Shown: positions 5,764 through 24,406 of the stretch, piece by piece | How positions within the stretch are numbered: position 1 is the stretch's first letter | How the letters are laid out: every line of letters begins with the position of its first letter | IMG/VR virus record: IMGVR_UViG_3300015245_000002 | Coordinates: 1-64,000 of that record | DNA length: 64,000 bases | Strand: one strand, 5' to 3' | DNA from: a virus | The notes under the pieces: model-generated | Told to the model about the DNA's origin: nothing | The model's database searches: none | What the model saw: the letters and a program-made list of their open reading frames with translations, nothing else | Program-made: the position numbers and the translations under genes

Positions 5764-5946
5764 CTATAATCCTTCCGATAAAGCGGTTACGAAGACACCG
5801 AGTCCCCAGTCCGACACGGTCATGCCAGCTGCATCGGCTGCAGCCTTGACGCGAGCGGCGAACTCAGCCGTGGCTCGGACCCGGATCGTCGCGCTGCGCT
5901 TGGATGCGCCGAGCGCTGGCCGTCCGCCTCGGTTCGTCTTCACCAT
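5764..5946 (-). CDS. Ribbon-helix-helix DNA-binding protein
   Basis: GGRP arm, TIRVR strand, AADAAGMTVSDW helix pattern. Confidence 0.7.
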   Translation of the reverse strand: MVKTNRGGRPALGASKRSATIRVRATAEFAARVKAAADAAGMTVSDWGLGVFVTALSEGL

Positions 5947-5952
5947 GAAGTA

Positions 5953-5981
5953 GTTGTAGCCACGAAACTATCCGGTGTCAA
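5953..5981 (-). promoter_or_regulatory. Sigma70-type promoter, leaderless
   Basis: TTGACA-17 nt-TACAAC-6 nt-ATG(5946). Confidence 0.75.
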
Positions 5982-5988
5982 GTACTCG

Positions 5989-6132
5989 CTACGCGGTCTC
6001 GACGGTGCAACCGTCGATGGACGAGATGCCTCCGCCTCCTCCGCCGCCGCCGTGCGCACGTCCGAGGTCCTGCGTTCCGAGACGACGGATGATGTCTCTC
6101 CTGACAGAGAGCCTGCTGACTGACTTGATCAT
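5989..6132 (-). CDS. RiPP-precursor-like peptide, 47 aa: MIKSVSRLSVRRDIIRRLGTQDLGRAHGGGGGGGGISSIDGCTVETA (not in ORF track)
   Basis: Manual translation; ATGA overlap and AGGAG RBS; leader aligns with peptides at 20721 and 21225. Confidence 0.75.
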   Translation of the reverse strand: MIKSVSRLSVRRDIIRRLGTQDLGRAHGGGGGGGGISSIDGCTVETA

Positions 6133-16834: not shown

Positions 16835-17269
16835 TCATGGCTGGCTCTCCACTGCTACTCTCAGACGCCGCATATCATCGAGCAGCGTCGGACGTGACTG
16901 CGCGCGCCGCTGGCGGATCTCGAGCTGGATCTCGGTGCGCGCCTGACGCGCCTCGGTGAGGCGATCTCCGATCGAGTCCCTGGCCGTCTCCAGTCGCGCG
17001 ATGTCCTCGGCGATTGCATCATCGGCTTGACGGAGCTCGGCGATTCGACTGATGTTGGGCTCCTGACAGTCCGTTCCCTGCTCGATACCGAGGGCATCGT
17101 TGATCTGGTCGACCAGCGCGCTCCGATCGACCTTTCCGGCGAGCAGCATGCAGACCTGCGCATGGCTTACGTTCGACCTCCGCGCCAAGTCTCGCCGCGA
17201 CATCCTCCGCTCCTCGATAGCCTCGGAGACCGTGCGGCGCCATTCTTCGGTGACCTCGGTGATGGTCAC
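16835..17269 (-). CDS. XRE-type HTH protein with C-terminal coiled coil
   Basis: MSRRDLARRSNVSHAQVCMLLAGK. Confidence 0.7.
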   Translation of the reverse strand: MTITEVTEEWRRTVSEAIEERRMSRRDLARRSNVSHAQVCMLLAGKVDRSALVDQINDALGIEQGTDCQEPNISRIAELRQADDAIAEDIARLETARDSIGDRLTEARQARTEIQLEIRQRRAQSRPTLLDDMRRLRVAVESQP

Positions 17270-18267
17270 GGGGCCCTCATGATCGTACTGGAGTCGGAGG
17301 TCGTGGTCGGCAGTCGCGGTGCGTGTGGACGCGCCTCGATCATCGCGATCGCGCCGTGCAACGAGACGAAGGTCCGGTTCACCGAGCGCTGCATGGCGCC
17401 GATCTCGTCGTCTCGATCCGTAACCGAGATCTTGACTGCGAGCTCGCTGGTGTCCGGGCTCTGGCTCACTCGATCCATCTCGGTCGAGAGCGCGACGAGC
17501 GGACGGATCATGCGCCGACTCAGCAGAAACATCCCTGCGATAGCCAGCAGTACGAGCGCGCCGAACGTTACCGACAGTCGCATGATCAGGTCATTGCGCT
17601 GCGCCGTGATCCGGTCCTGCGATACGCCGACACGGAACGCGCCCCAGTGCTGCCCATGGACGAAGATCGGCGCGGCAACGTCCCAGGCCAGTTCTCCGGT
17701 GTCGCGGGGGTATTGCTGGACGAGCACACCAGATCCGGCGTAGCCAGCAGCCGCGACAGGCTCCGCGCCCGGGTAGATCATCTTGCCTCGAGACAGCTGA
17801 GGGTCGGTAGCGTCCCCTTTCGGTGGTCCGTCCTGACGAGAATTCGTCGTCGGAACATAGCCGCCGCTGGCACCCGACTCCAGGCGGATCCGCATCATTC
17901 CCGAAGCGAACAGGCAGTCACTACACGAGCCGACTACCGCGTCCTCGATCTGCTGGATCCCGTGCGAGTCCGTGTAATCGGACAGCAGCGATCGATACCT
18001 GGCGTGCTCGACCTTGACCGAGAATTTGATCTCATCGAGCCGTGGGTGCACGACGTCATCGATCGTCAGCTTACCCGCCTCGACTGCATCGTCGAGGAGT
18101 CGACCATACGCCGCGGCGCTGGCGAGGGCCGTGGTTTGCGCATCCTTGACACGAGCCCCTGTGACCACGTCCATTTCCCGGGCCGTCACGGCGGCACCGG
18201 CCATGGCGAGGAGTAGGAGCATGATCGCAGCGGAGAATACGGAGAGGCGTACGGAGATTCGCTTCAT
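17266..18267 (-). CDS. Membrane sensor: TM, Cache-like domain, TM, HAMP; no output domain
   Basis: YPRDTGELAWDVAAPIFVHGQHWGAFRVG (MCP-type sensor); HAMP IRPLVAL...DEIGAMQRSVN; stop about 30 aa later. Confidence 0.8.
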   Translation of the reverse strand: MKRISVRLSVFSAAIMLLLLAMAGAAVTAREMDVVTGARVKDAQTTALASAAAYGRLLDDAVEAGKLTIDDVVHPRLDEIKFSVKVEHARYRSLLSDYTDSHGIQQIEDAVVGSCSDCLFASGMMRIRLESGASGGYVPTTNSRQDGPPKGDATDPQLSRGKMIYPGAEPVAAAGYAGSGVLVQQYPRDTGELAWDVAAPIFVHGQHWGAFRVGVSQDRITAQRNDLIMRLSVTFGALVLLAIAGMFLLSRRMIRPLVALSTEMDRVSQSPDTSELAVKISVTDRDDEIGAMQRSVNRTFVSLHGAIAMIEARPHAPRLPTTTSDSSTIMRAP

Positions 18268-18881
18268 GGGATCTTTCTGGCGCGATAGGAGTCGAAGCAG
18301 GTGCATCGCGCCGACACGCAACCATGGTCACACAGTCGCATCGTCTCCACCATCGGAACGACGTCATCAATGTGGTCGACACCGGTCTGATTCACGACGT
18401 GACGGATCGTTGCGCTGGCGGCGCGGAACTCTTCGCGTAGCCCGCGGATATCATCGGACGTGACCGTCGCCGGATCGCGATCGCCATGCGTCTCGTCGAG
18501 GTAGGCCAACTGTAGCGCGCGGAGAGCGTACTCCGCAGCAAGCGCGCGACCGCGCCAGTCCTGAGTCGGCTCCTCGCACCTGTCGTGGCGGTTCCAGAGG
18601 CGCCAGCACAAGTGCTGGCCGTCACCTTCCGGAATCGTGTCGTAGTCTGCCTGCGTTGCCGTTGACTTATCGCAGTTTTCGCAGCGGTCAGCCATGGGGC
18701 ACCTCAAACGGACGACGCCAGGCCAGTTCGAGCCCGCCGGCGATCGACAGGTTGGCCAGCAACACGGTCAGGTCGTAGTCGGTCTCATAGCGGATCGCCT
18801 TCATGCCTGGCCCGGTGAGCACCCACTCGGCGCGGTGCCAGATAGCCGGATCGTCGCCGTAGGTCGTGCTGGTGATGATGT

Positions 18882-19286: not shown

Positions 19287-20720
19287 GTCCTCACCTCTTC
19301 CTGTGCCGCGAACGCAATCACGGCCTGCCCCGCTTCGGTCAGCGGATGATGCCGCTTCGGGGCCTTGGAGGCGGCCCAACTCTGACCCGTTGGTCCCGGC
19401 TCCGGCGACGGCTCGATCCATCCGAGGCGTAGGAATGCGCGGCGCATCGCCGATGGGATCCTGCGAGTCGGATCGGCATGAAGTCTCCGAAGCATCTCGA
19501 GCCGCCCCGGGTTGAGCTCTGGCGCGAATCTCGACGCAGCCATACGCTCGGTGTGACACGACACCATCGGCTCTCCACCTGTCGATACGCAATGGTCGAA
19601 CATCGCCGAGCCGCAGTGGGCGCAGGCGACGCGGCGTCCAGTGCTGGCGATTGAGGTTCCGCTCATGGGCGGACCGCGGAGAGCGCCATGGCGAGTCGCT
19701 CCCCTTCTGGGGTGCCGGCCACGGAGTCGCGCCATGCCAGCGCCGCGGCCACGATCTCGAGCAGCGCCGGTGCAGCGTTGCGAAGGTCGGCGATCGCGAT
19801 GGCATCGGAGGCGACGCCGAATGGAGAATTGCAGCAACCGCAGCCACCGATCACGAGCGTAGCAGCGGTTCCCTGCTTGCTGTCATCGACAGTAATACTG
19901 ACGTCTTCGGCGCTCGATGGCGCGATTTCGGTGTAGACAAGCTTCTCATTCATCTCGTACTGCCATGAGCCAGCCTTCCAGGGACCGGCGGTCATGCTGG
20001 CTACGGACCGCTGCAATTCGTCGATGCTCGGCATCATGTCGTCTCTCCTTTGTCGGCCGTCGCTGGCGTCTGCTGCGCCCTCACGCCAGCCTCGAACCCT
20101 CGTCTGTGTGCCATCGCGAACAGGTACGTGTCCGCGATCCACACGGCGCCGACAGACACCGGAATCCACCACCAATGAATCACGCCTCACCGCCATGTGG
20201 TCGCCCAGGCGTCAGCCAGCTCTGCGCCGCGATGGAAGCGGACAAGCGGGCGTTCTCAGCCTCCAACTCGCAAACACGCCTCGCGGACCATTCCGCGCTG
20301 GCGAACCTCACCGCTGCCGCGAAGCGTTCCTCGCGGAGGTCGATGCGCAGCGCGGTGATGATGCGAGCCGATGACCGGATGGCTTGCAGCGCGACGAGGA
20401 GCGACAGGATGGCGAGGAGCGCGATCATCAGGTGCCGCCCAGGATCCGAGAGATCACGGCGCGGGCTGCGTTGACCATAGACGTGTGTTTCCTGGACACG
20501 CTGTCGACGCAGCCGGCGACCGGGTTGTTACAGATCAGGCGATCGGCGTATCTGAGCGCGTCGATGTCTGTGTCGGACAGTACAGATCGATCGTCGAGGC
20601 GTAACAGCAGTGCATCCCGCTCCGCCACCAACGCCGCGGCGACCTGATGCGCATGATCGAGCTGAGCCGACATCTCCGCGACCGCCTGTACGTGTTCGCA
20701 TCTCTCGTCGACGATGATAG

Positions 20721-20975
20721 TCACTGCGGCTCCTCCGTGCCGCACACGTCGCTGCCTCCGCCGCCGAGTGTGCCGCCGCCGCCGCCGGGCGGCCACGGAC
20801 ACACCGCTGGGCAACTCGCTCCGCCAGATCGACCGCCGCATCCGTCACTGCATGTGGCGTAGAAGGTGACCGGGACGGTCTGCGGTCCAGCGCCCCGCAC
20901 GCCGCCAAGACTGGCAGACGCCAGGAGACGGATGGTGTCGGAATTCAGGTGCAACTTCTTGTCGTGTCGCTTCAT
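20721..20975 (-). CDS. RiPP/lanthipeptide-precursor-like peptide, 84 aa
   Basis: Leader KKLHLNSDTIRLLASASLGGVRGA; core with 5 Cys, several Ser/Thr and Gly runs. Confidence 0.75.
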   Translation of the reverse strand: MKRHDKKLHLNSDTIRLLASASLGGVRGAGPQTVPVTFYATCSDGCGGRSGGASCPAVCPWPPGGGGGTLGGGGSDVCGTEEPQ

Positions 20976-21220
20976 TTGATCCCCATCGAGATTGTTTCAA
21001 TCAGTTGCATGATCGGCACCCCTGTATTCCTGGAGCAAGCGGACAACCTTGCGTACGTATCGCCCGACACCGATATGCTGCCGCGTGTGGATCGGTTGTG
21101 TGGCGATCGCTGCATCACGGCTCCGCACCGAGGACATGGCGCCGATGGTGCAGCGAGCCCCAGGGTGCTGACGCTGATGCGCCCGTGACTGGGGCAAGTA
21201 TATTTGGCCGGTCCGCTCAT
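20972..21220 (-). CDS. Zn-finger plus ribbon-helix-helix-like regulator
   Basis: CPSH...CPRC then SISVSGDTYARL...TGVPIMQLIE. Confidence 0.6.
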   Translation of the reverse strand: MSGPAKYTCPSHGRISVSTLGLAAPSAPCPRCGAVMQRSPHNRSTRGSISVSGDTYARLSACSRNTGVPIMQLIETISMGIK

Positions 21221-21224
21221 GACG

Positions 21225-21479
21225 CTACGGAGATCCGCCGTTGCCGCAGTCGAGCGACGCAGCGTTGCACGTCGGCATGTTCACCGACATGAACTGGCAC
21301 TGATTCGCTGTGCATGCAGCATCGAAGCTGTTGCAAGTCATGACCCGCGAGCAGTCGCAGGTTGCACCGAACGTTGGGTTCGGCACGGATGCGCCGCCCC
21401 ATGCCCTGCCGAGCTGCGGAGAGGTCAGTGAGCGGACCGCTTCTTTTCGAAGGTGTAGCCTTTGGGAGATCTTGTGCAT
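21225..21479 (-). CDS. RiPP/lanthipeptide-precursor-like peptide, 84 aa
   Basis: Leader RLHLRKEAVRSLTSPQLGRAWGG; core with 7 Cys and 11 Ser/Thr; AGAGGA RBS. Confidence 0.8.
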   Translation of the reverse strand: MHKISQRLHLRKEAVRSLTSPQLGRAWGGASVPNPTFGATCDCSRVMTCNSFDAACTANQCQFMSVNMPTCNAASLDCGNGGSP

Positions 21480-21487
21480 GTTGTCCT

Positions 21488-22609
21488 CTAAAACGGTGAA
21501 TCTGCCACTGGTTCGTCGTCAGTCGTGACGAGCTGCGGCTTGGTGTCGTATTCCTCGATCACTGTCGTAGACTTGCGCTCGGATCCGCCGGCGGCCCGAA
21601 CCGCCTCGATCACGGCCTTCGCCGCGCCGCGCTTGCCCTTGAGCGCCGCGTCGAGCCGAGTCTTCGTGGCGACACGCGCGACCGCAGCGTCGGCCGTTGC
21701 TTGGTCGTGCAGCCGCTTGACGGTCTCGTAGACCACGTCACCGTCGAGCTTTTCGTTGCCGAGCTTGTGGTGCGGGCCGAATGTCTTGCCTAAGCGCAGT
21801 TGGATCGGTCGCTCAGCGGCCCGCGCATGCAACGCGGCGTTGAGCCTTGATACAACAATCTTGATCCGCTGCAGTAATTCATACGCCTCCGCCGCTTCGG
21901 TGTCGTCCTGGAACGGGATCATCGCTTCGATGCGTACCGCGATCTCTCCGGTTCCAGCCTGAATCGCGAGTGCTTTTTGTTCGGGGCACGACAAAAACGC
22001 GTGGCAGTATTTGCAGTGTGGTCCGGTACGCAACGTTTTGTCGGTTGAAATCAACATGTCCCGCAACCGAACGAAATGAGCGTCGAGTTCGAGCACGCCA
22101 AGTGTAGCGATGTCAGCAGGAAGCCACGACGCACCGAGATAGACGATTGCTACGGTGACCTCGTCACGACCAGAAGCTCGAGCAACCGCGAGCGCTGCGC
22201 ATGCGAGCTGCCGGTTGTCGGCTGCGGACGTGACTCGCTCAAAGCCCTTGTAGTCCACGACGAGGATTCGCCGCTCGCCGTAGACGATCAGGTCAATCGT
22301 CCCAGGGATCTCGAACGGTCGAAGTCCGGTGTAGTCGCGCCATGCGATGTGACCAAGAGCGCGCGCCGTGTCGTCGCTGGTGTCGATCGCCATGGCACAT
22401 TCAGCCGACAGAACATCGCCGGGCTCGAGGAGCTTGCGTACCTGCCACGGAAGATCTTCGTTCGCGCCAAGCACCACCGCCGCTTCCGCATCCCCGTGCC
22501 GATCGTTGCCCTGATCAGCATACGTCGTGTGGTAGTCGTGCTGCGGCAGGTGAGCGGAGCCTGGGCATGCCAGGACGCGCTCCACGGACGAAAACGAATG
22601 ACGGATCAT
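21488..22609 (-). CDS. PD-(D/E)XK Cas4-like exonuclease (DUF2800-like)
   Basis: N-terminal CPGS, GTIDL, VDYKG, QL, C-terminal HCKYC...CP cluster. Confidence 0.85.
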   Translation of the reverse strand: MIRHSFSSVERVLACPGSAHLPQHDYHTTYADQGNDRHGDAEAAVVLGANEDLPWQVRKLLEPGDVLSAECAMAIDTSDDTARALGHIAWRDYTGLRPFEIPGTIDLIVYGERRILVVDYKGFERVTSAADNRQLACAALAVARASGRDEVTVAIVYLGASWLPADIATLGVLELDAHFVRLRDMLISTDKTLRTGPHCKYCHAFLSCPEQKALAIQAGTGEIAVRIEAMIPFQDDTEAAEAYELLQRIKIVVSRLNAALHARAAERPIQLRLGKTFGPHHKLGNEKLDGDVVYETVKRLHDQATADAAVARVATKTRLDAALKGKRGAAKAVIEAVRAAGGSERKSTTVIEEYDTKPQLVTTDDEPVADSPF

Positions 22610-22919
22610 GGCTACGGCGCCTCGGTCCAGGAGCTCGGCGCCTCTTGGTCCACGACGAGTCTGTCGTGATGTTCCAGCGCGTCGCACAGCACGCCAATCA
22701 CCTCTCCTTCGTTGCGCATGGCGATCGCCTTTCTGACCGCCTGCAGTACGACGCGCGCTGCATCGAGCTCGTTCATGATCGAGCGCAGCGCGTTCGATGC
22801 CTCGCCTTGCGGAGGATGCCAATGTTCGTCGTATCGCAGGATGCTGACCCTATAGTCACCAGATGGGACGACGAAGGTGAACTTGCCTCCATCAACACGG
22901 ACACGGCGATCCTGATTGT

Positions 22920-23798
22920 TCACGACACCTCACCCGTGCTTGCGTCGGATTGCGTCACGGGGACCACAGGCGGCATCGCTTCGACCGATGACGAACCGCC
23001 TGATGTAGGGCGCCGCTTGAGGTCTGCCACCTTGGCCTTGTACTTCGCGTTGATCGCCTCGTACGCGGGATGTCCGGGCTTGAGCCCGCGCTTGGAAAAG
23101 CGATTGGCAATCACTTGGCATTCGGACATCGAGTCTGCGACGTCCAGTTCGGCGAACTCCTGGTAGTCGCTGGTGTTGAACGGCGGTGGAGTCGTTTGTG
23201 CGTCGGTGAACTCGGCGTCGATGACATCGGATTGCGTAGCGGCGGATGAAGCCTGCGCCACAGTGCTCGGCTCGCGATCGGCGATCTCGTCACTGGTGAA
23301 GCAGCCAGCGAGCACGTCCGGGTAAACGTCGCGTGCGAGCTCTGACTTCGCACGCGACGCCAGCATTGCGCGCGGAAAGGTCCGCCAGTTGTCCTTCTGG
23401 TGCAGCGCCGCTGACTTGGCCATCTCGATCGTCCACGTGCACTTCTGCTCGGGCTCTCCTCGGCGCTTCGTCACGTACGTGACGCTCCTGTCGGTCCCCT
23501 CGCCGGAACGGCGGAAGTACTCCGCCTTGCCACTGCCGAGCACGACCGCGACCATGGCGTCTGCGGTCATCACCGGCTTGCCAGAGATGATGTTGAAGCT
23601 ACGTAGCGACGCCATCGAGTACAGGCCGAGTTCCTGACCGGCCATGATCTGCATCAGGACGTCTGGAACCTTGCCCTTGAGGGCGTCGGGCAGTAGGGAG
23701 GACTTCGCAAGACGTTCCGCGAGGTCAATCACTTCGGCGAGGGTGCGCGGAACGATAACCGTCGTAGTCTGGCGGACCAGTGCGTTTTCTTCGCTCAC
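22920..23798 (-). CDS. recT: RecT-like single-strand annealing protein
   Basis: LAKSSLLP...GQELGL...IISGKP, WRTFPRAML, ARDVYPDVLAG; adjacent to exonuclease. Confidence 0.8.
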   Translation of the reverse strand: MSEENALVRQTTTVIVPRTLAEVIDLAERLAKSSLLPDALKGKVPDVLMQIMAGQELGLYSMASLRSFNIISGKPVMTADAMVAVVLGSGKAEYFRRSGEGTDRSVTYVTKRRGEPEQKCTWTIEMAKSAALHQKDNWRTFPRAMLASRAKSELARDVYPDVLAGCFTSDEIADREPSTVAQASSAATQSDVIDAEFTDAQTTPPPFNTSDYQEFAELDVADSMSECQVIANRFSKRGLKPGHPAYEAINAKYKAKVADLKRRPTSGGSSSVEAMPPVVPVTQSDASTGEVS

Positions 23799-24406
23799 CG
23801 CAGCACCTTGGCGATCTGCGCGACGGTGCGGTCATACGCTGACGAGCAGGAGATGAACGGGATCGCATCCTCGTCACCCGGCGGCGGAATGTCATCCGAT
23901 GGCGGCGCCCCACTGTACATCTGACCGCTCTGACCGCCGGCGTCTTCCGCCAGTGCGGCACGCAGGGCAGCGTCGGAATCGGTCAGGTTCTCCTGGCTCG
24001 ACGCCTTGAGTGGCGCCGGACCGCGACCGATGCTGTTCGGCTTCACCCAGATCGGCGCAGGCCCAACCCTGCCGCCGCGGTCCCACTCGTCAAACCTCTT
24101 CCCCCTCCTCATCTCAATGTGCTTGATCTCGATGGTCGACTCGCCGCCGGTTGCCTTGACCCATTCTGCGACATCGCTCTCGATCGTGGCCAGCGTCTGG
24201 CATTTCCAGCCAACCGCCTTGCAGGTCCGCGCGATGTACGGCGCCTGCTTGTTGTTAACCGCCTCTTCGTACGTGTACATCTTCCCTTTGTGCTCACCCT
24301 TGGTGATCTCGACATTGATCCGAACCACCGGGATATTGCGACTGTCGTCTCCGTAAAAACCGTCGAGAACTTTGCATGGCCAAAAACCAGCTGCGATATC
24401 TGACAT
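23795..24406 (-). CDS. Putative single-stranded DNA-binding protein
   Basis: Beta-rich N-terminus and acidic tail DDIPPPGDEDAIPF; next to recT; AAGGA RBS before MSDIAAG. Confidence 0.6.
   Translation of the reverse strand: MSDIAAGFWPCKVLDGFYGDDSRNIPVVRINVEITKGEHKGKMYTYEEAVNNKQAPYIARTCKAVGWKCQTLATIESDVAEWVKATGGESTIEIKHIEMRRGKRFDEWDRGGRVGPAPIWVKPNSIGRGPAPLKASSQENLTDSDAALRAALAEDAGGQSGQMYSGAPPSDDIPPPGDEDAIPFISCSSAYDRTVAQIAKVLR

What the first reader, a model, noticed from the sequence alone, without database searches (positions are those of the whole stretch)
20721..21479. Phage-encoded RiPP/lanthipeptide-like precursor pair with no modifying enzyme
Seen: two 84-aa ORFs with homologous leaders (RLHLRKEAVRSLTSPQLGRAWGG; KLHLNSDTIRLLASASLGGVRGA) ending in a GG/GA site. 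Their cores are unrelated and rich in Cys/Ser/Thr (7 Cys + 11 Ser/Thr; 5 Cys). They flank a Zn-finger/RHH regulator in the leftward arm, just downstream of the Cas4-like/RecT module. No LanB/C/M/KC, YcaO, radical SAM or C39 transporter is recognisable in the window. Known: a (K/R)LxLx(K/x)(E/D)T(I/V)xxL leader with a double-glycine site is the pattern of class I lanthipeptide-type precursors. Inference: the phage supplies substrates or leader decoys to the host's RiPP machinery, giving either phage-specified modified peptides (signals or toxins) or inhibition of host peptide production.
Basis: partly seen in the sequence, partly recalled or inferred. Interest (0 to 1): 0.88.

Follow-up and report, generated by a model that had tools for sequence, protein, structure and literature searches.

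The report
Orphan lanthipeptide-type precursor genes in phage
A complete temperate soil phage carries three small genes for cysteine-rich peptides whose front ends match the recognition leaders of bacterial ring-forming (RiPP) peptides, but none of the enzymes that mature or export them, so the peptides probably depend on, or interfere with, host machinery.

Summary
Two 84-codon ORFs (21225-21479 and 20721-20975, minus strand) flank an 82-codon Zn-ribbon/RHH-like ORF. A third 47-codon paralogue lies at 5989-6132.

A profile of the phage peptides finds 948 small proteins (E<=1e-3) built as 'MKKxxKKLxLNRETxRxL...GG' plus a Cys/Thr-rich core. 21 of 32 aligned members hit NCBIfam NF038153 (class I lanthipeptide leader).

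In 80 bacterial loci, 77 of them Acidobacteriota:
- 13 have LanB or LanC within 10 kb.
- 5 have a RiPP radical-SAM methyltransferase.
- 10 have a C39-ABC exporter.
- 56 have none of these.

A leader HMM built only from LanB/LanC-adjacent precursors ranks pepB, pepA and pepC as the top three of 1,588 phage ORFs. The 83.7-kb phage has no LanB, LanC, rSAM, YcaO or C39 gene.

Three limits apply:
- The phage peptides fall below NF038153's cut-off.
- The leader type is shared with rSAM systems.
- The host is unidentified, and a myxobacterial origin is not supported (2 of 201 genomes).

Host-dependent maturation is inferred, not shown. This scan's earlier notes describe similar orphan precursors in other soil phages. 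Verdict: real genes, a new variant of a known kind.

The parts
21225..21479 (-). pepA: 84-aa precursor-like peptide. The 29-aa leader has L8-x-L10-x-K12-x5-L18 and ends G28-G29. The 55-aa core has 7 Cys, 6 Ser and 5 Thr.
   Evidence: ORF and sequence. Composition. NF038153 scores 12-13.5 bits, below the 22-bit cut-off, aligned to the model's end at GG. LanB/LanC-adjacent leader HMM: 13.3 bits, E = 0.0042, rank 2 of 1,588 phage ORFs. ESM Atlas first hit scores 0.87 to a cluster carrying PF28317 Lant_leader_dom, a lead only.
20972..21220 (-). 82-aa ORF between the two peptides. It has an N-terminal CxxH...CxxC zinc-ribbon-like part and a C-terminal RHH-like part. Its role and its link to the peptides are unproven.
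   Evidence: Only sub-threshold Pfam and NCBIfam hits: Zn_ribbon_8 E = 0.009, RHH_3 E = 0.011, HVO_2523 E = 1.5e-4. The AlphaFold2 single-sequence model has mean pLDDT 51.7, with strands at 6-9 and 13-16 and helices at 54-66 and 70-79. This is compatible with the reading but low confidence. Coding score is -0.09. No relative was found in IMG/VR.
20721..20975 (-). pepB: 84-aa precursor-like peptide. The leader reads KLHLNSDTIRLL and ends G28-A29. The Gly-rich core has 5 Cys.
   Evidence: LanB/LanC-adjacent leader HMM: 26.0 bits, E = 4.3e-7, rank 1 of 1,588. rSAM-adjacent leader HMM: 21.1 bits. A full-length homologue, P0004, is 57% identical over 98% of the length with the Cys positions and CPWPPGGGGG kept.
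5989..6132 (-). pepC: 47-aa third paralogue. It has the same leader frame (RLSVRRDIIRRL...LGRAHGG) and a short Gly-rich core with 1 Cys.
   Evidence: AGGAG lies 7 nt upstream, and there is an ATGA overlap with the upstream ORF. LanB/LanC-adjacent leader HMM: 8.8 bits, E = 0.11, rank 3 of 1,588. Recovered by the family profile at 43 bits.
5764..5946 (-). 60-aa RHH-type protein directly downstream of pepC. A TTGACA-17-TACAAC element ends 6 nt before its ATG. The link to pepC is unproven.
   Evidence: Pfam NikA-like: 26.6 bits against a cut-off of 27, E = 6.8e-6. Sequence read.

Best explanation
pepA, pepB and pepC are real phage genes for RiPP-type precursor peptides. Each has a ~29-residue leader of the LxLx(K/R)x5L...G(G/A) kind followed by a Cys/Ser/Thr/Gly-rich core.

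The phage encodes no maturase, protease or exporter. The most likely mechanism is therefore action in trans. The leader is recognised by a host maturase, either LanB/LanC of class I lanthipeptide systems or a leader-dependent radical-SAM enzyme. The core is modified. A host C39-peptidase ABC transporter then cuts after GG/GA and exports the product.

The genes sit in the long leftward operon with RecT and the Cas4-like nuclease, so they would be made early in infection or induction.

Shown: the genes, their family membership, the bacterial family's enzyme contexts, and the lack of enzymes in the phage. Inferred: recognition by host enzymes, modification, export, timing of expression, and what the product does.
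For: 1. Family membership. A profile of six phage or metagenome peptides finds 948 proteins at E<=1e-3 among 1.84 billion. The 150 listed are 51-168 aa, and most align from their first residues. All 40 that I read show the leader followed by a Cys/Ser/Thr-rich core. 21 of 32 aligned members hit NF038153 lant_leader_L1a at E<=0.01, best 2.9e-8.

2. Enzyme context in bacteria. Of 80 loci, LanC is within 10 kb in 12, LanB in 6 (LanB or LanC in 13), a C39-ABC exporter in 10, HlyD in 5, and rSAM_ocin_1 in 5. Loci L033, L036, L061 and L074 hold a precursor together with LanB, LanC and C39-ABC.

3. A leader HMM built only from 15 LanB/LanC-adjacent precursors was searched against all 1,588 six-frame ORFs of the phage. 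It ranks pepB (E = 4.3e-7), pepA (0.0042) and pepC (0.11) first. The next best ORF has E = 1.9.

4. Published motif. pepA carries the LxLxKx5L + GG motif linked to C39 proteases (PMC7268733, passages).

5. Orphan status is normal for this family. 56 of 80 bacterial loci, and 32 of 44 with full flanks, have none of LanB, LanC, rSAM or C39 within 10 kb. Genomes hold up to 53 or more copies, with 893 matches across 44 genomes.

6. The core is constrained.
- P0004 keeps pepB's Cys pattern at 57% identity.
- The related phage G003 carries a family peptide. Its core is 31 of 31 identical in two other contigs, while the first 18 leader residues differ at 4 positions.

7. No maturase in the phage.
- Six-frame searches for LanC, LanB, Radical_SAM, Peptidase_C39 and YcaO found none. 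The Radical_SAM, C39 and YcaO searches passed their cut-offs in control genomes. The LanB and LanC searches had no control over the cut-off.
- 150 ORFs scanned against Pfam gave 11, 14 and 15 families in the three batches, none RiPP-related.
- G003 also lacks LanC, LanB and rSAM.

8. Complex prediction: weak support only. The job paired a stand-in LanB from an Acidobacteriota MAG (residues 58-800 of the L032 ORF) with pepB.
- The ipSAE score is 0.38 (runs 0.38, 0.49, 0.35), and the best of 3 controls is 0.02.
- In the tool's calibration, the mark was reached by 58 of 80 solved complexes and 2 of 110 mismatched pairs. Scores of 0.60 or under were reached by only 7 of those 80 solved complexes and by both mismatches that passed.
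- The runs agree in at least 27% of contacts, and partner pLDDT is at least 32.
- My own alignments were used, so the calibration counts hold only roughly.
- A like complex (NisB with the NisA leader, recalled) is solved, so the pass may reflect likeness only.
Against: - By NCBI's curated threshold neither peptide is a member of NF038153. pepA scores 12-13.5 bits against 22, and pepB has no hit at E<=10.
- The host is unknown, so it is unknown whether it has LanB/LanC, rSAM or a C39 exporter.
- No gene links the phage to the bacteria that hold the family. The portal protein matched 0 of 44 genomes and the sensor-HAMP protein 0 of 44. The large terminase matched 0 of 301 genomes of the Thermoanaerobaculia class. 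The portal matched 1 of 301 Myxococcota genomes, at 34% identity.
- The portal's best named relatives are Roseobacter and Rhizobium phages at about 35% identity. Several tail families are typical of alphaproteobacterial phages; that association is recalled, the hits are.
- The bacterial-type leader KLxLNRET was not confirmed in any IMG/VR contig: 14 pattern matches, 0 confirmed. The phage leaders form a divergent subgroup.
- The coding score of pepA (0.076) lies below the 95th percentile of off-frames (0.092).
- pepC has only one Cys.
- No expression data exist, and modification is untested.
Confidence: 0.55

Rival explanations
1. Leader decoys. The peptides are made early to occupy the leader-binding site of host maturases or the C39 exporter. 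This would block host RiPP production, for example an anti-phage lanthipeptide, and the cores would not be the point.
For: - The genes sit in the early leftward operon, with no promoter-like or terminator-like site of their own on the minus strand between 14.3 and 28.2 kb.
- Class I lanthipeptide clusters with anti-phage activity are reported in Actinobacteria (bioRxiv 10.1101/2024.06.26.600839, passages; review PMC12360287, passages).
- The phage has three copies of the leader with different cores.
Against: - The cores are at least as conserved as the leaders where homologues exist. The G003 peptide's core is 31 of 31 identical, against 4 changes in the first 18 leader residues. pepB and P0004 keep all aligned Cys.
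- All Cys lie in the cores, with a substrate-like S/T/C composition.
- No anti-phage RiPP is known for this leader family.
Confidence: 0.15
2. Unmodified double-glycine-leader peptides. The leader serves only as an export and cleavage signal for a host C39-ABC transporter. The Cys-rich cores act as disulfide-bonded secreted peptides (class II bacteriocin-like) or as small intracellular proteins.
For: - The leaders end in GG or GA, with hydrophobic residues at -4, -7, -12 and -15. The positions are read; the consensus for C39 substrates is recalled.
- C39-ABC exporters are the second most frequent family-linked neighbour, in 10 of 80 loci.
- Some family members have no Cys at all, for example the L084 peptide and P0023.
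- 56 of 80 bacterial loci have no maturase within 10 kb.
Against: - The LxLxKx5L part of the leader lies upstream of the export motif and is the part tied to class I maturases in print.
- LanB or LanC neighbours occur in 13 of 80 loci, often directly adjacent.
Confidence: 0.15
3. Passenger DNA. The small genes were captured from a host that is full of them and are carried without benefit to the phage.
For: - Some bacterial genomes hold tens of copies, so capture is plausible.
- The slot downstream of the Cas4-like gene holds different small genes in each of three related phages.
Against: - There are three paralogues at two loci, all translationally coupled to neighbours.
- A related phage whose Cas4-like protein is 66% identical carries another family member at a different site.
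- The phage leaders are divergent from the bacterial type, and the bacterial type was not confirmed in IMG/VR. This argues for long residence in phages rather than recent capture.
Confidence: 0.1
4. Chance ORFs that are not translated.
For: At 63% G+C, long ORFs arise in many frames. pepA's coding score is borderline and the middle ORF's is negative.
Against: - Each ORF scores best of its six frames.
- Shine-Dalgarno-like sites and 4-nt overlaps are present.
- Protein-level homologues exist in other contigs.
- There is a highly significant family profile match.
Confidence: 0.04

Closest known systems
Class I lanthipeptide precursors (LanA) with LxLxKx5L...GG leaders (NCBIfam NF038153 lant_leader_L1a; described for Bacteroidetes, pinensin family, by Walker et al. 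2020, PMC7268733)
   Same: Same leader architecture and spacing. pepA has the motif exactly. The cleavage site is GG or GA. The core is rich in Cys, Ser and Thr. Bacterial relatives found with the phage profile sit next to LanB, LanC and C39-ABC.
   Different: The phage peptides score below the curated cut-off. They are encoded in a phage with no LanB, LanC or LanT. pepB has S and pepC has R at the K position. No product is known.
Precursors associated with TIGR03975 rSAM_ocin_1 (RiPP maturation radical-SAM C-methyltransferase) and TIGR04149 GG_sam_targ_CFB
   Same: The leader type is the same. An HMM built from rSAM-adjacent leaders gives pepB 21.1 bits. The cores of L056 and L070 begin VVPVSF..PCT, resembling VPVTFYATC in pepB.
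   Different: There is no rSAM gene in the phage. The core similarity is short and of low complexity.
Prochlorosins (ProcA precursors with the ProcM enzyme). The general account is recalled. The idea of distant, substrate-tolerant enzymes and scattered precursor genes is mentioned in passages of PMC11118758 and PMC7268733.
   Same: Many precursor genes with a conserved leader and hypervariable cores are scattered far from the enzyme and processed in trans.
   Different: Prochlorosins are class II, use a Nif11-type leader and lie on cyanobacterial chromosomes, not in a phage.
Phage-encoded complete bacteriocin/RiPP clusters (pBGCs of temperate Bacillus phages). A passage in PMC13500778 was read. 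The primary paper (Dragos et al. 2021) is known only from reference lists and recall.
   Same: A temperate phage carries genes for a ribosomal peptide natural product.
   Different: Those phages carry the whole functional cluster. Here only the substrate genes are present.
Arbitrium AimP (phage-encoded pro-peptide processed by host functions; passage of PMC12360287)
   Same: It is a small phage-encoded precursor expressed on infection and needing host export and processing. The gene lies next to a DNA-binding regulator.
   Different: In the account read, AimP is secreted, cut to a short peptide and sensed by AimR; that it is a Sec-signal, unmodified hexapeptide is recalled. Here the leader is RiPP-type and the neighbours are RHH-like, with no AimR-like receptor.

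Membership tests
Class I lanthipeptide precursor, L1a leader type (NF038153 / LxLxKx5L-GG) | Score at or above the curated HMM cut-off (22 bits) | tested here: not met
   pepA scores 12 bits (hmmscan) and 13.5 bits (six-frame search). pepB has no hit at E<=10. pepC was not scanned on its own, and the six-frame search of the genome found only pepA.
Class I lanthipeptide precursor, L1a leader type (NF038153 / LxLxKx5L-GG) | LxLxKx5L leader motif followed by a GG (or GA) end | tested here: met
   pepA reads L8-H-L-R-K12-EAVRS-L18 ... G28G29. pepB reads LxLxSx5L...GA. pepC reads LxVxRx5L...GG. The motif is as printed in PMC7268733.
Class I lanthipeptide precursor, L1a leader type (NF038153 / LxLxKx5L-GG) | Leader homologous to leaders of precursors that sit beside LanB/LanC | tested here: met
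   An HMM from 15 LanB/LanC-adjacent leaders gives pepB E = 4.3e-7, pepA 0.0042 and pepC 0.11. These are ranks 1-3 of 1,588 ORFs.
Class I lanthipeptide precursor, L1a leader type (NF038153 / LxLxKx5L-GG) | Core with both Cys and Ser/Thr available for (methyl)lanthionine rings | tested here: met
   pepA has 7 Cys and 11 Ser/Thr. pepB has 5 and 9. pepC has 1 and 4.
Class I lanthipeptide precursor, L1a leader type (NF038153 / LxLxKx5L-GG) | Encoded with, or in the same genome as, LanB and LanC | tested here: not met
   No LanB or LanC was found in the 83.7-kb phage. The host genome is unknown, so the same-cell condition is untestable here.
Class I lanthipeptide precursor, L1a leader type (NF038153 / LxLxKx5L-GG) | Dehydration and thioether rings in the product | not testable with these tools
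   This needs co-expression and mass spectrometry.
rSAM-modified RiPP precursors with the same GG leader (TIGR04149; partners of TIGR03975) | Match to TIGR04149, or adjacency to a RiPP radical-SAM enzyme | tested here: not met
   pepA and pepB have no TIGR04149 hit at E<=10; pepC was covered only as a member of alignment A8, which does not name the 4 of 32 members that hit. There is no Radical_SAM match in the phage, while all 14 control genomes are positive. An HMM of rSAM-adjacent leaders still scores pepB at 21.1 bits, so this class is not excluded as the way the peptides work.
Double-glycine (C39 peptidase) export leaders | G-G or G-A at -2/-1, with hydrophobic residues at -4, -7, -12 and -15 | tested here: met
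   Residues at -4/-7/-12/-15 are A/L/L/V in pepA, V/L/L/I in pepB and A/L/L/I in pepC, read. The consensus itself is recalled, not from a call.
Double-glycine (C39 peptidase) export leaders | A C39-ABC transporter available to the peptide | tested here: not met
   There is no Peptidase_C39 match in the phage, while 7 control genomes score over the cut-off. The host is unknown.

The most novel reading that the evidence does not exclude
The phage uses substrate-only hijacking. Early in infection it feeds its own precursors to the host's leader-dependent maturases and C39 exporter, making phage-specified modified peptides. These would act as an infection-stage signal or counter-defence rather than as a lysogen's bacteriocin. 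The RHH-type proteins encoded next to two of the three precursors may be part of the response circuit. Earlier notes of this scan describe similar orphan precursors in other soil phages. If those hold, this would be a general and so far undescribed class of phage auxiliary gene.
Probability: 0.25. Interest if true: 0.85.

Novelty: new variant of a known kind. Interest (0 to 1): 0.62.

Why it matters
Phages are known to carry whole bacteriocin clusters. A phage that carries only the substrate genes implies a different strategy. It would reprogram, or jam, a host's promiscuous peptide-modifying enzymes with a few hundred bases of DNA.

If true, this gives a testable route to phage-specified natural products, to phage signalling by modified peptides, or to counter-defence against RiPP-based immunity. 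It also ties phages to a very large, uncharacterised precursor family in soil Acidobacteriota, with up to 53 or more copies per genome.

Six literature searches found no report of orphan lanthipeptide-type precursors in phages. Those searches cover only the held open-access library and are not proof of absence.

Tried and rejected
Host identification failed.
- The search for related loci with the portal in genome contigs found no relative.
- The portal matched 0 of 44 family-bearing genomes, and the sensor-HAMP protein 0 of 44.
- The portal matched 1 of 301 Myxococcota genomes, at 34% identity.
- The large terminase matched 0 of 301 genomes of the Thermoanaerobaculia class.
- There is no tRNA gene and no Rfam match in the window.
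- The ESM Atlas places the phage's sensor-HAMP protein nearest to Myxococcota and Thermodesulfobacteriota clusters. That is a lead only.

Expression: no run was listed for 19600-23800 and no RNA holder was listed.

Genomic context of the closest homologues P0004 and P0002:
- P0004 was not found in viral contigs.
- The one metagenome hit, L013, is a spurious off-frame match to TCASCASC.
- The listing of cluster members gave no names or taxa.

Other searches:
- The first word-based search with pepA found only itself.
- pepA and the Zn-ribbon/RHH ORF have no relatives in IMG/VR by pattern search.
- Core-only BLAST against 113 family cores gave only short, low-complexity matches and does not assign a maturase.
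- The fold of the 82-aa ORF came out at low confidence (pLDDT 51.7), so no fold search was run.

Rejected ideas:
- The leader is a truncated RHH strand. It resembles one in pattern only, and the family evidence explains it better.
- The cassette is a fixed part of the recombination module. Three related phages have other genes downstream of the Cas4-like gene.

Walker et al.'s Supplementary Figure S2 (leader motifs) and the family tables were not seen.
Full report
WHAT IS THERE

The window is the first 64 kb of an 83,744-bp IMG/VR virus record with direct terminal repeats, rated 100% complete. It is a tailed temperate phage. Pfam hits include the following:
- a Mu-type portal;
- a terminase subunit;
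- a tape-measure protein;
- tail and baseplate families;
- an Amidase_2 protein (N-acetylmuramoyl-L-alanine amidase);
- a tyrosine integrase;
- a VapE-like primase/helicase.

On the minus strand a long run of tightly packed ORFs extends from about 27.8 kb to about 14.4 kb. It contains RecT (22920-23798) and a DUF2800/PD-(D/E)XK Cas4-like nuclease (21488-22822).

The gene order directly after the nuclease is as follows:
- pepA at 21225-21479 starts 8 nt after the nuclease stop codon.
- An 82-codon ORF at 20972-21220 follows.
- pepB at 20721-20975 comes next.
- The following ORF starts with a GTGA overlap on pepB's stop.

No promoter-like or terminator-like site of the minus strand lies within the run between 14.3 and 28.2 kb; the two minus-strand terminator-like sites sit at its ends (14287-14271 and 28231-28218), and the one promoter-like site (15519-15492) lies about 5 kb downstream of the cassette. 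I infer that the peptides are co-transcribed with the early recombination genes.

A third paralogue, pepC (5989-6132), lies 15 kb away. It has AGGAG upstream and an ATGA overlap with the preceding ORF.

IS IT REAL?

The quoted leaders and residue counts are correct. All Cys lie in the cores.

A codon-usage score was trained on 26 long ORFs of the phage.
- It puts each peptide ORF first among its six frames.
- The values are modest: pepA 0.076, pepB 0.165 and pepC 0.163.
- True genes average 0.24 +/- 0.19. The off-frame 95th percentile is 0.092.

The stronger evidence is conservation.
- P0004, an 83-aa metagenomic protein, is 57% identical to pepB over 98% of its length. It keeps the Cys positions and the CPWPPGGGGG and SDVCGTE blocks.
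- A related phage, G003, is 97% complete and its Cas4-like protein is 66% identical. It encodes MKRHKTKLWLNAETIRML...VVVGG plus a Cys/Thr-rich core at a different place in its early region.
- That core is identical (31 of 31 residues) in two other contigs, whose leaders differ at 4 of the first 18 residues.

Two other relatives do not carry such a gene: G002 (a complete genome) and G001 (an 11% fragment). All three relatives have different small genes downstream of the Cas4-like gene. The precursors are therefore accessory cargo in a variable slot.

WHAT FAMILY?

NF038153 (class I lanthipeptide leader) touches pepA only weakly and pepB not at all. The ESM Atlas's nearest cluster for pepA carries PF28317 Lant_leader_dom, at a score of 0.87, which is a lead only.

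A profile of the six phage-type peptides was run against 1.84 billion representative proteins.
- It returned 948 hits at E<=1e-3.
- The 150 listed are 51-168 aa, and most align from their first residues.
- All 40 that I read have the form MKKxxKKLxLNRETxRxL......GG followed by a Cys/Ser/Thr-rich core.
- In an alignment of 32, of which 5 are phage-type, 21 hit NF038153, 4 hit TIGR04149 (rSAM-modified RiPP) and 2 hit NF038158.

The pattern KLxLNRET[LIV]R matched 248 stretches in 185,579 species genomes, of which 116 were confirmed.
- By their record titles, the best 80 loci are 77 Acidobacteriota (mostly Thermoanaerobaculia), 1 Planctomycetota, 1 Haliangiales and 1 unclassified.
- This pattern was taken from the top hits, so the taxonomic picture is biased towards them.

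ENZYME CONTEXT IN BACTERIA

I clustered all ORFs of 150 aa or more in the 80 loci and annotated representatives of the recurrent clusters. The counts, out of 80 loci, are:
- LanC: 12.
- Full-length LanB: 6.
- LanB or LanC: 13.
- C39-peptidase ABC exporter: 10.
- HlyD: 5.
- TIGR03975 RiPP radical-SAM C-methyltransferase (719 bits): 5.
- None of LanB, LanC, rSAM or C39: 56 (32 of the 44 loci with full flanks).

Several loci are textbook class I clusters. One example is L036, with HlyD, C39-ABC, LanC, LanB and a precursor.

The phage-only profile hits 42 of 44 of these genomes, 893 times in all. The maximum is 53 in one genome, and these counts are lower bounds. In even samples it hits:
- 14 of 151 genomes of that class;
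- 10 of 201 genomes of the phylum, one of them unpublished;
- 2 of 201 Myxococcota genomes.

The family is therefore patchy and hugely expanded in some large-genome Acidobacteriota. Its members are usually encoded far from any enzyme.

DO THE PHAGE LEADERS MATCH LEADERS FROM REAL CLUSTERS?

I built an HMM only from the 15 precursors adjacent to LanB or LanC. I searched it with all filters off against all 1,588 six-frame ORFs of 30 aa or more in the phage.
- The top three are pepB (26.0 bits, E = 4.3e-7), pepA (13.3 bits, E = 0.0042) and pepC (8.8 bits, E = 0.11).
- The next best ORF has E = 1.9.
- An HMM from the 7 rSAM-adjacent precursors scores pepB at 21.1 bits and pepA at 9.2 bits.

The leader alone therefore cannot say which enzyme class is used.

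pepA shows the published LxLxKx5L...GG motif exactly. Walker et al. tie that motif to class I LanAs of Bacteroidetes and to C39 proteases (PMC7268733, passages).

A complex prediction paired a stand-in LanB with pepB and gave weak support only.
- The ipSAE score is 0.38 and the best control is 0.02.
- In the tool's calibration the mark was reached by 58 of 80 solved complexes and 2 of 110 mismatched pairs.
- Scores of 0.60 or under were reached by only 7 of those 80 solved complexes and by both mismatches that passed.
- The runs agree in at least 27% of contacts, and partner pLDDT is at least 32.
- My own alignments were used, and a like complex is solved, so the pass may be memory.

NO ENZYMES IN THE PHAGE

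- Six-frame searches of the whole phage for LanC, LanB, Radical_SAM, Peptidase_C39 and YcaO found nothing.
- The controls rang over the cut-off for Radical_SAM (14 of 14 genomes), C39 (7) and YcaO (5).
- The LanB and LanC searches had no control genome over the cut-off. The same Pfam models did recognise the bacterial LanC (150.8 bits) and LanB (574 bits).
- A Pfam scan of 150 called ORFs listed 11, 14 and 15 families in three batches, none RiPP-related. One ORF that spans the window end (62085-64106) was left out.
- G003 also lacks LanC, LanB and rSAM.

HOW IT MOST LIKELY WORKS

The best reading (confidence 0.55) is that these are host-dependent precursors. A host maturase binds the leader and modifies the core. 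A host C39-ABC transporter then cuts at GG/GA and exports the product.

Core conservation argues that the product matters. Early-operon placement argues for a role during infection rather than as a lysogen's bacteriocin.

The rivals are a leader decoy (0.15), an unmodified exported Cys-rich peptide (0.15), neutral passenger DNA (0.10) and non-coding ORFs (0.04).

The weakest link is the host, because no gene ties the phage to the bacteria that hold the family. The portal's best named relatives are Roseobacter and Rhizobium phages at about 35% identity.

NEIGHBOURS

- The 82-aa ORF between pepA and pepB has only sub-threshold zinc-ribbon and RHH hits and a low-confidence model.
- The 60-aa ORF after pepC is a borderline NikA-like RHH, at 26.6 bits against a cut-off of 27.
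- In G003 the downstream gene has no Pfam match.
- A peptide-regulator pairing is therefore suggestive in this phage but not conserved.

COMPARISON AND NOVELTY

The peptides work like LanA-type, or rSAM-type, precursors. They fail two membership features: the curated score and co-encoded enzymes.

Complete bacteriocin clusters on temperate phages are known (passage of PMC13500778). Anti-phage class I lanthipeptide clusters are also known.

Six searches found no report of precursor-only carriage by phages.

This scan's own notes list similar orphan precursors in other soil phages: 19 findings in at least 16 genomes. I did not test those notes. They suggest a recurrent phenomenon but are not independent evidence.

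Noticed in passing
L014-L093 and handles G004-G047 (bacterial MAGs): Some large-genome Acidobacteriota (Thermoanaerobaculia) hold tens of genes for this leader family: up to 53 matches in one genome and 893 in 44 genomes, both lower bounds. Most lie far from any maturase. This is a prochlorosin-like expansion that I did not find described in the searches made.
   Followed up: partly
L070:9995-10720 with the rSAM gene at L070:7895-9931; also L056, L067, L072 and L079: Three tandem precursors with the same leader follow a TIGR03975 RiPP radical-SAM C-methyltransferase. Their cores begin VVPVSF..PCT. The leader family therefore serves at least two enzyme classes.
   Followed up: partly
P0006, P0007 and P0059 (metagenomic proteins): These single ORFs each carry two leader-plus-core units in tandem. 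Each unit is preceded by an NHNE(T/K)L-like stretch. They may be multi-unit precursors or read-through of tandem genes.
   Followed up: no
window 20034-20428 (-): Two small ORFs (82 and 49 aa) with hydrophobic N-terminal helices lie two genes downstream of pepB. They could be membrane proteins, perhaps immunity-like or exclusion proteins. They have no family match.
   Followed up: no
window 17266-18321 (-): The phage encodes a 351-aa membrane sensor with a HAMP domain and no output domain. The nearest ESM Atlas clusters are HAMP proteins of Myxococcota and Thermodesulfobacteriota (scores 0.98). It has no match in 44 Acidobacteriota genomes.
   Followed up: partly
window 5947-5990 (-): TTGACA-17-TACAAC ends 6 nt before the ATG of the RHH gene at 5946, with no Shine-Dalgarno site. 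This looks like a leaderless transcript start directly after pepC.
   Followed up: no
L006:6357-8016, L007:5589-6160, L008:7179-8800, compared with window 20428-21487: The slot just downstream of the Cas4-like nuclease holds unrelated small genes in each of four related phages. In L006 it includes a 476-aa ORF. It appears to be a hot spot for accessory cargo.
   Followed up: partly
L008:1599-1937 (+): In the related phage G003, the gene just upstream of its precursor peptide starts with a lipoprotein-like signal (MKKIVAMIVLMTAC...). It has no Pfam match.
   Followed up: no
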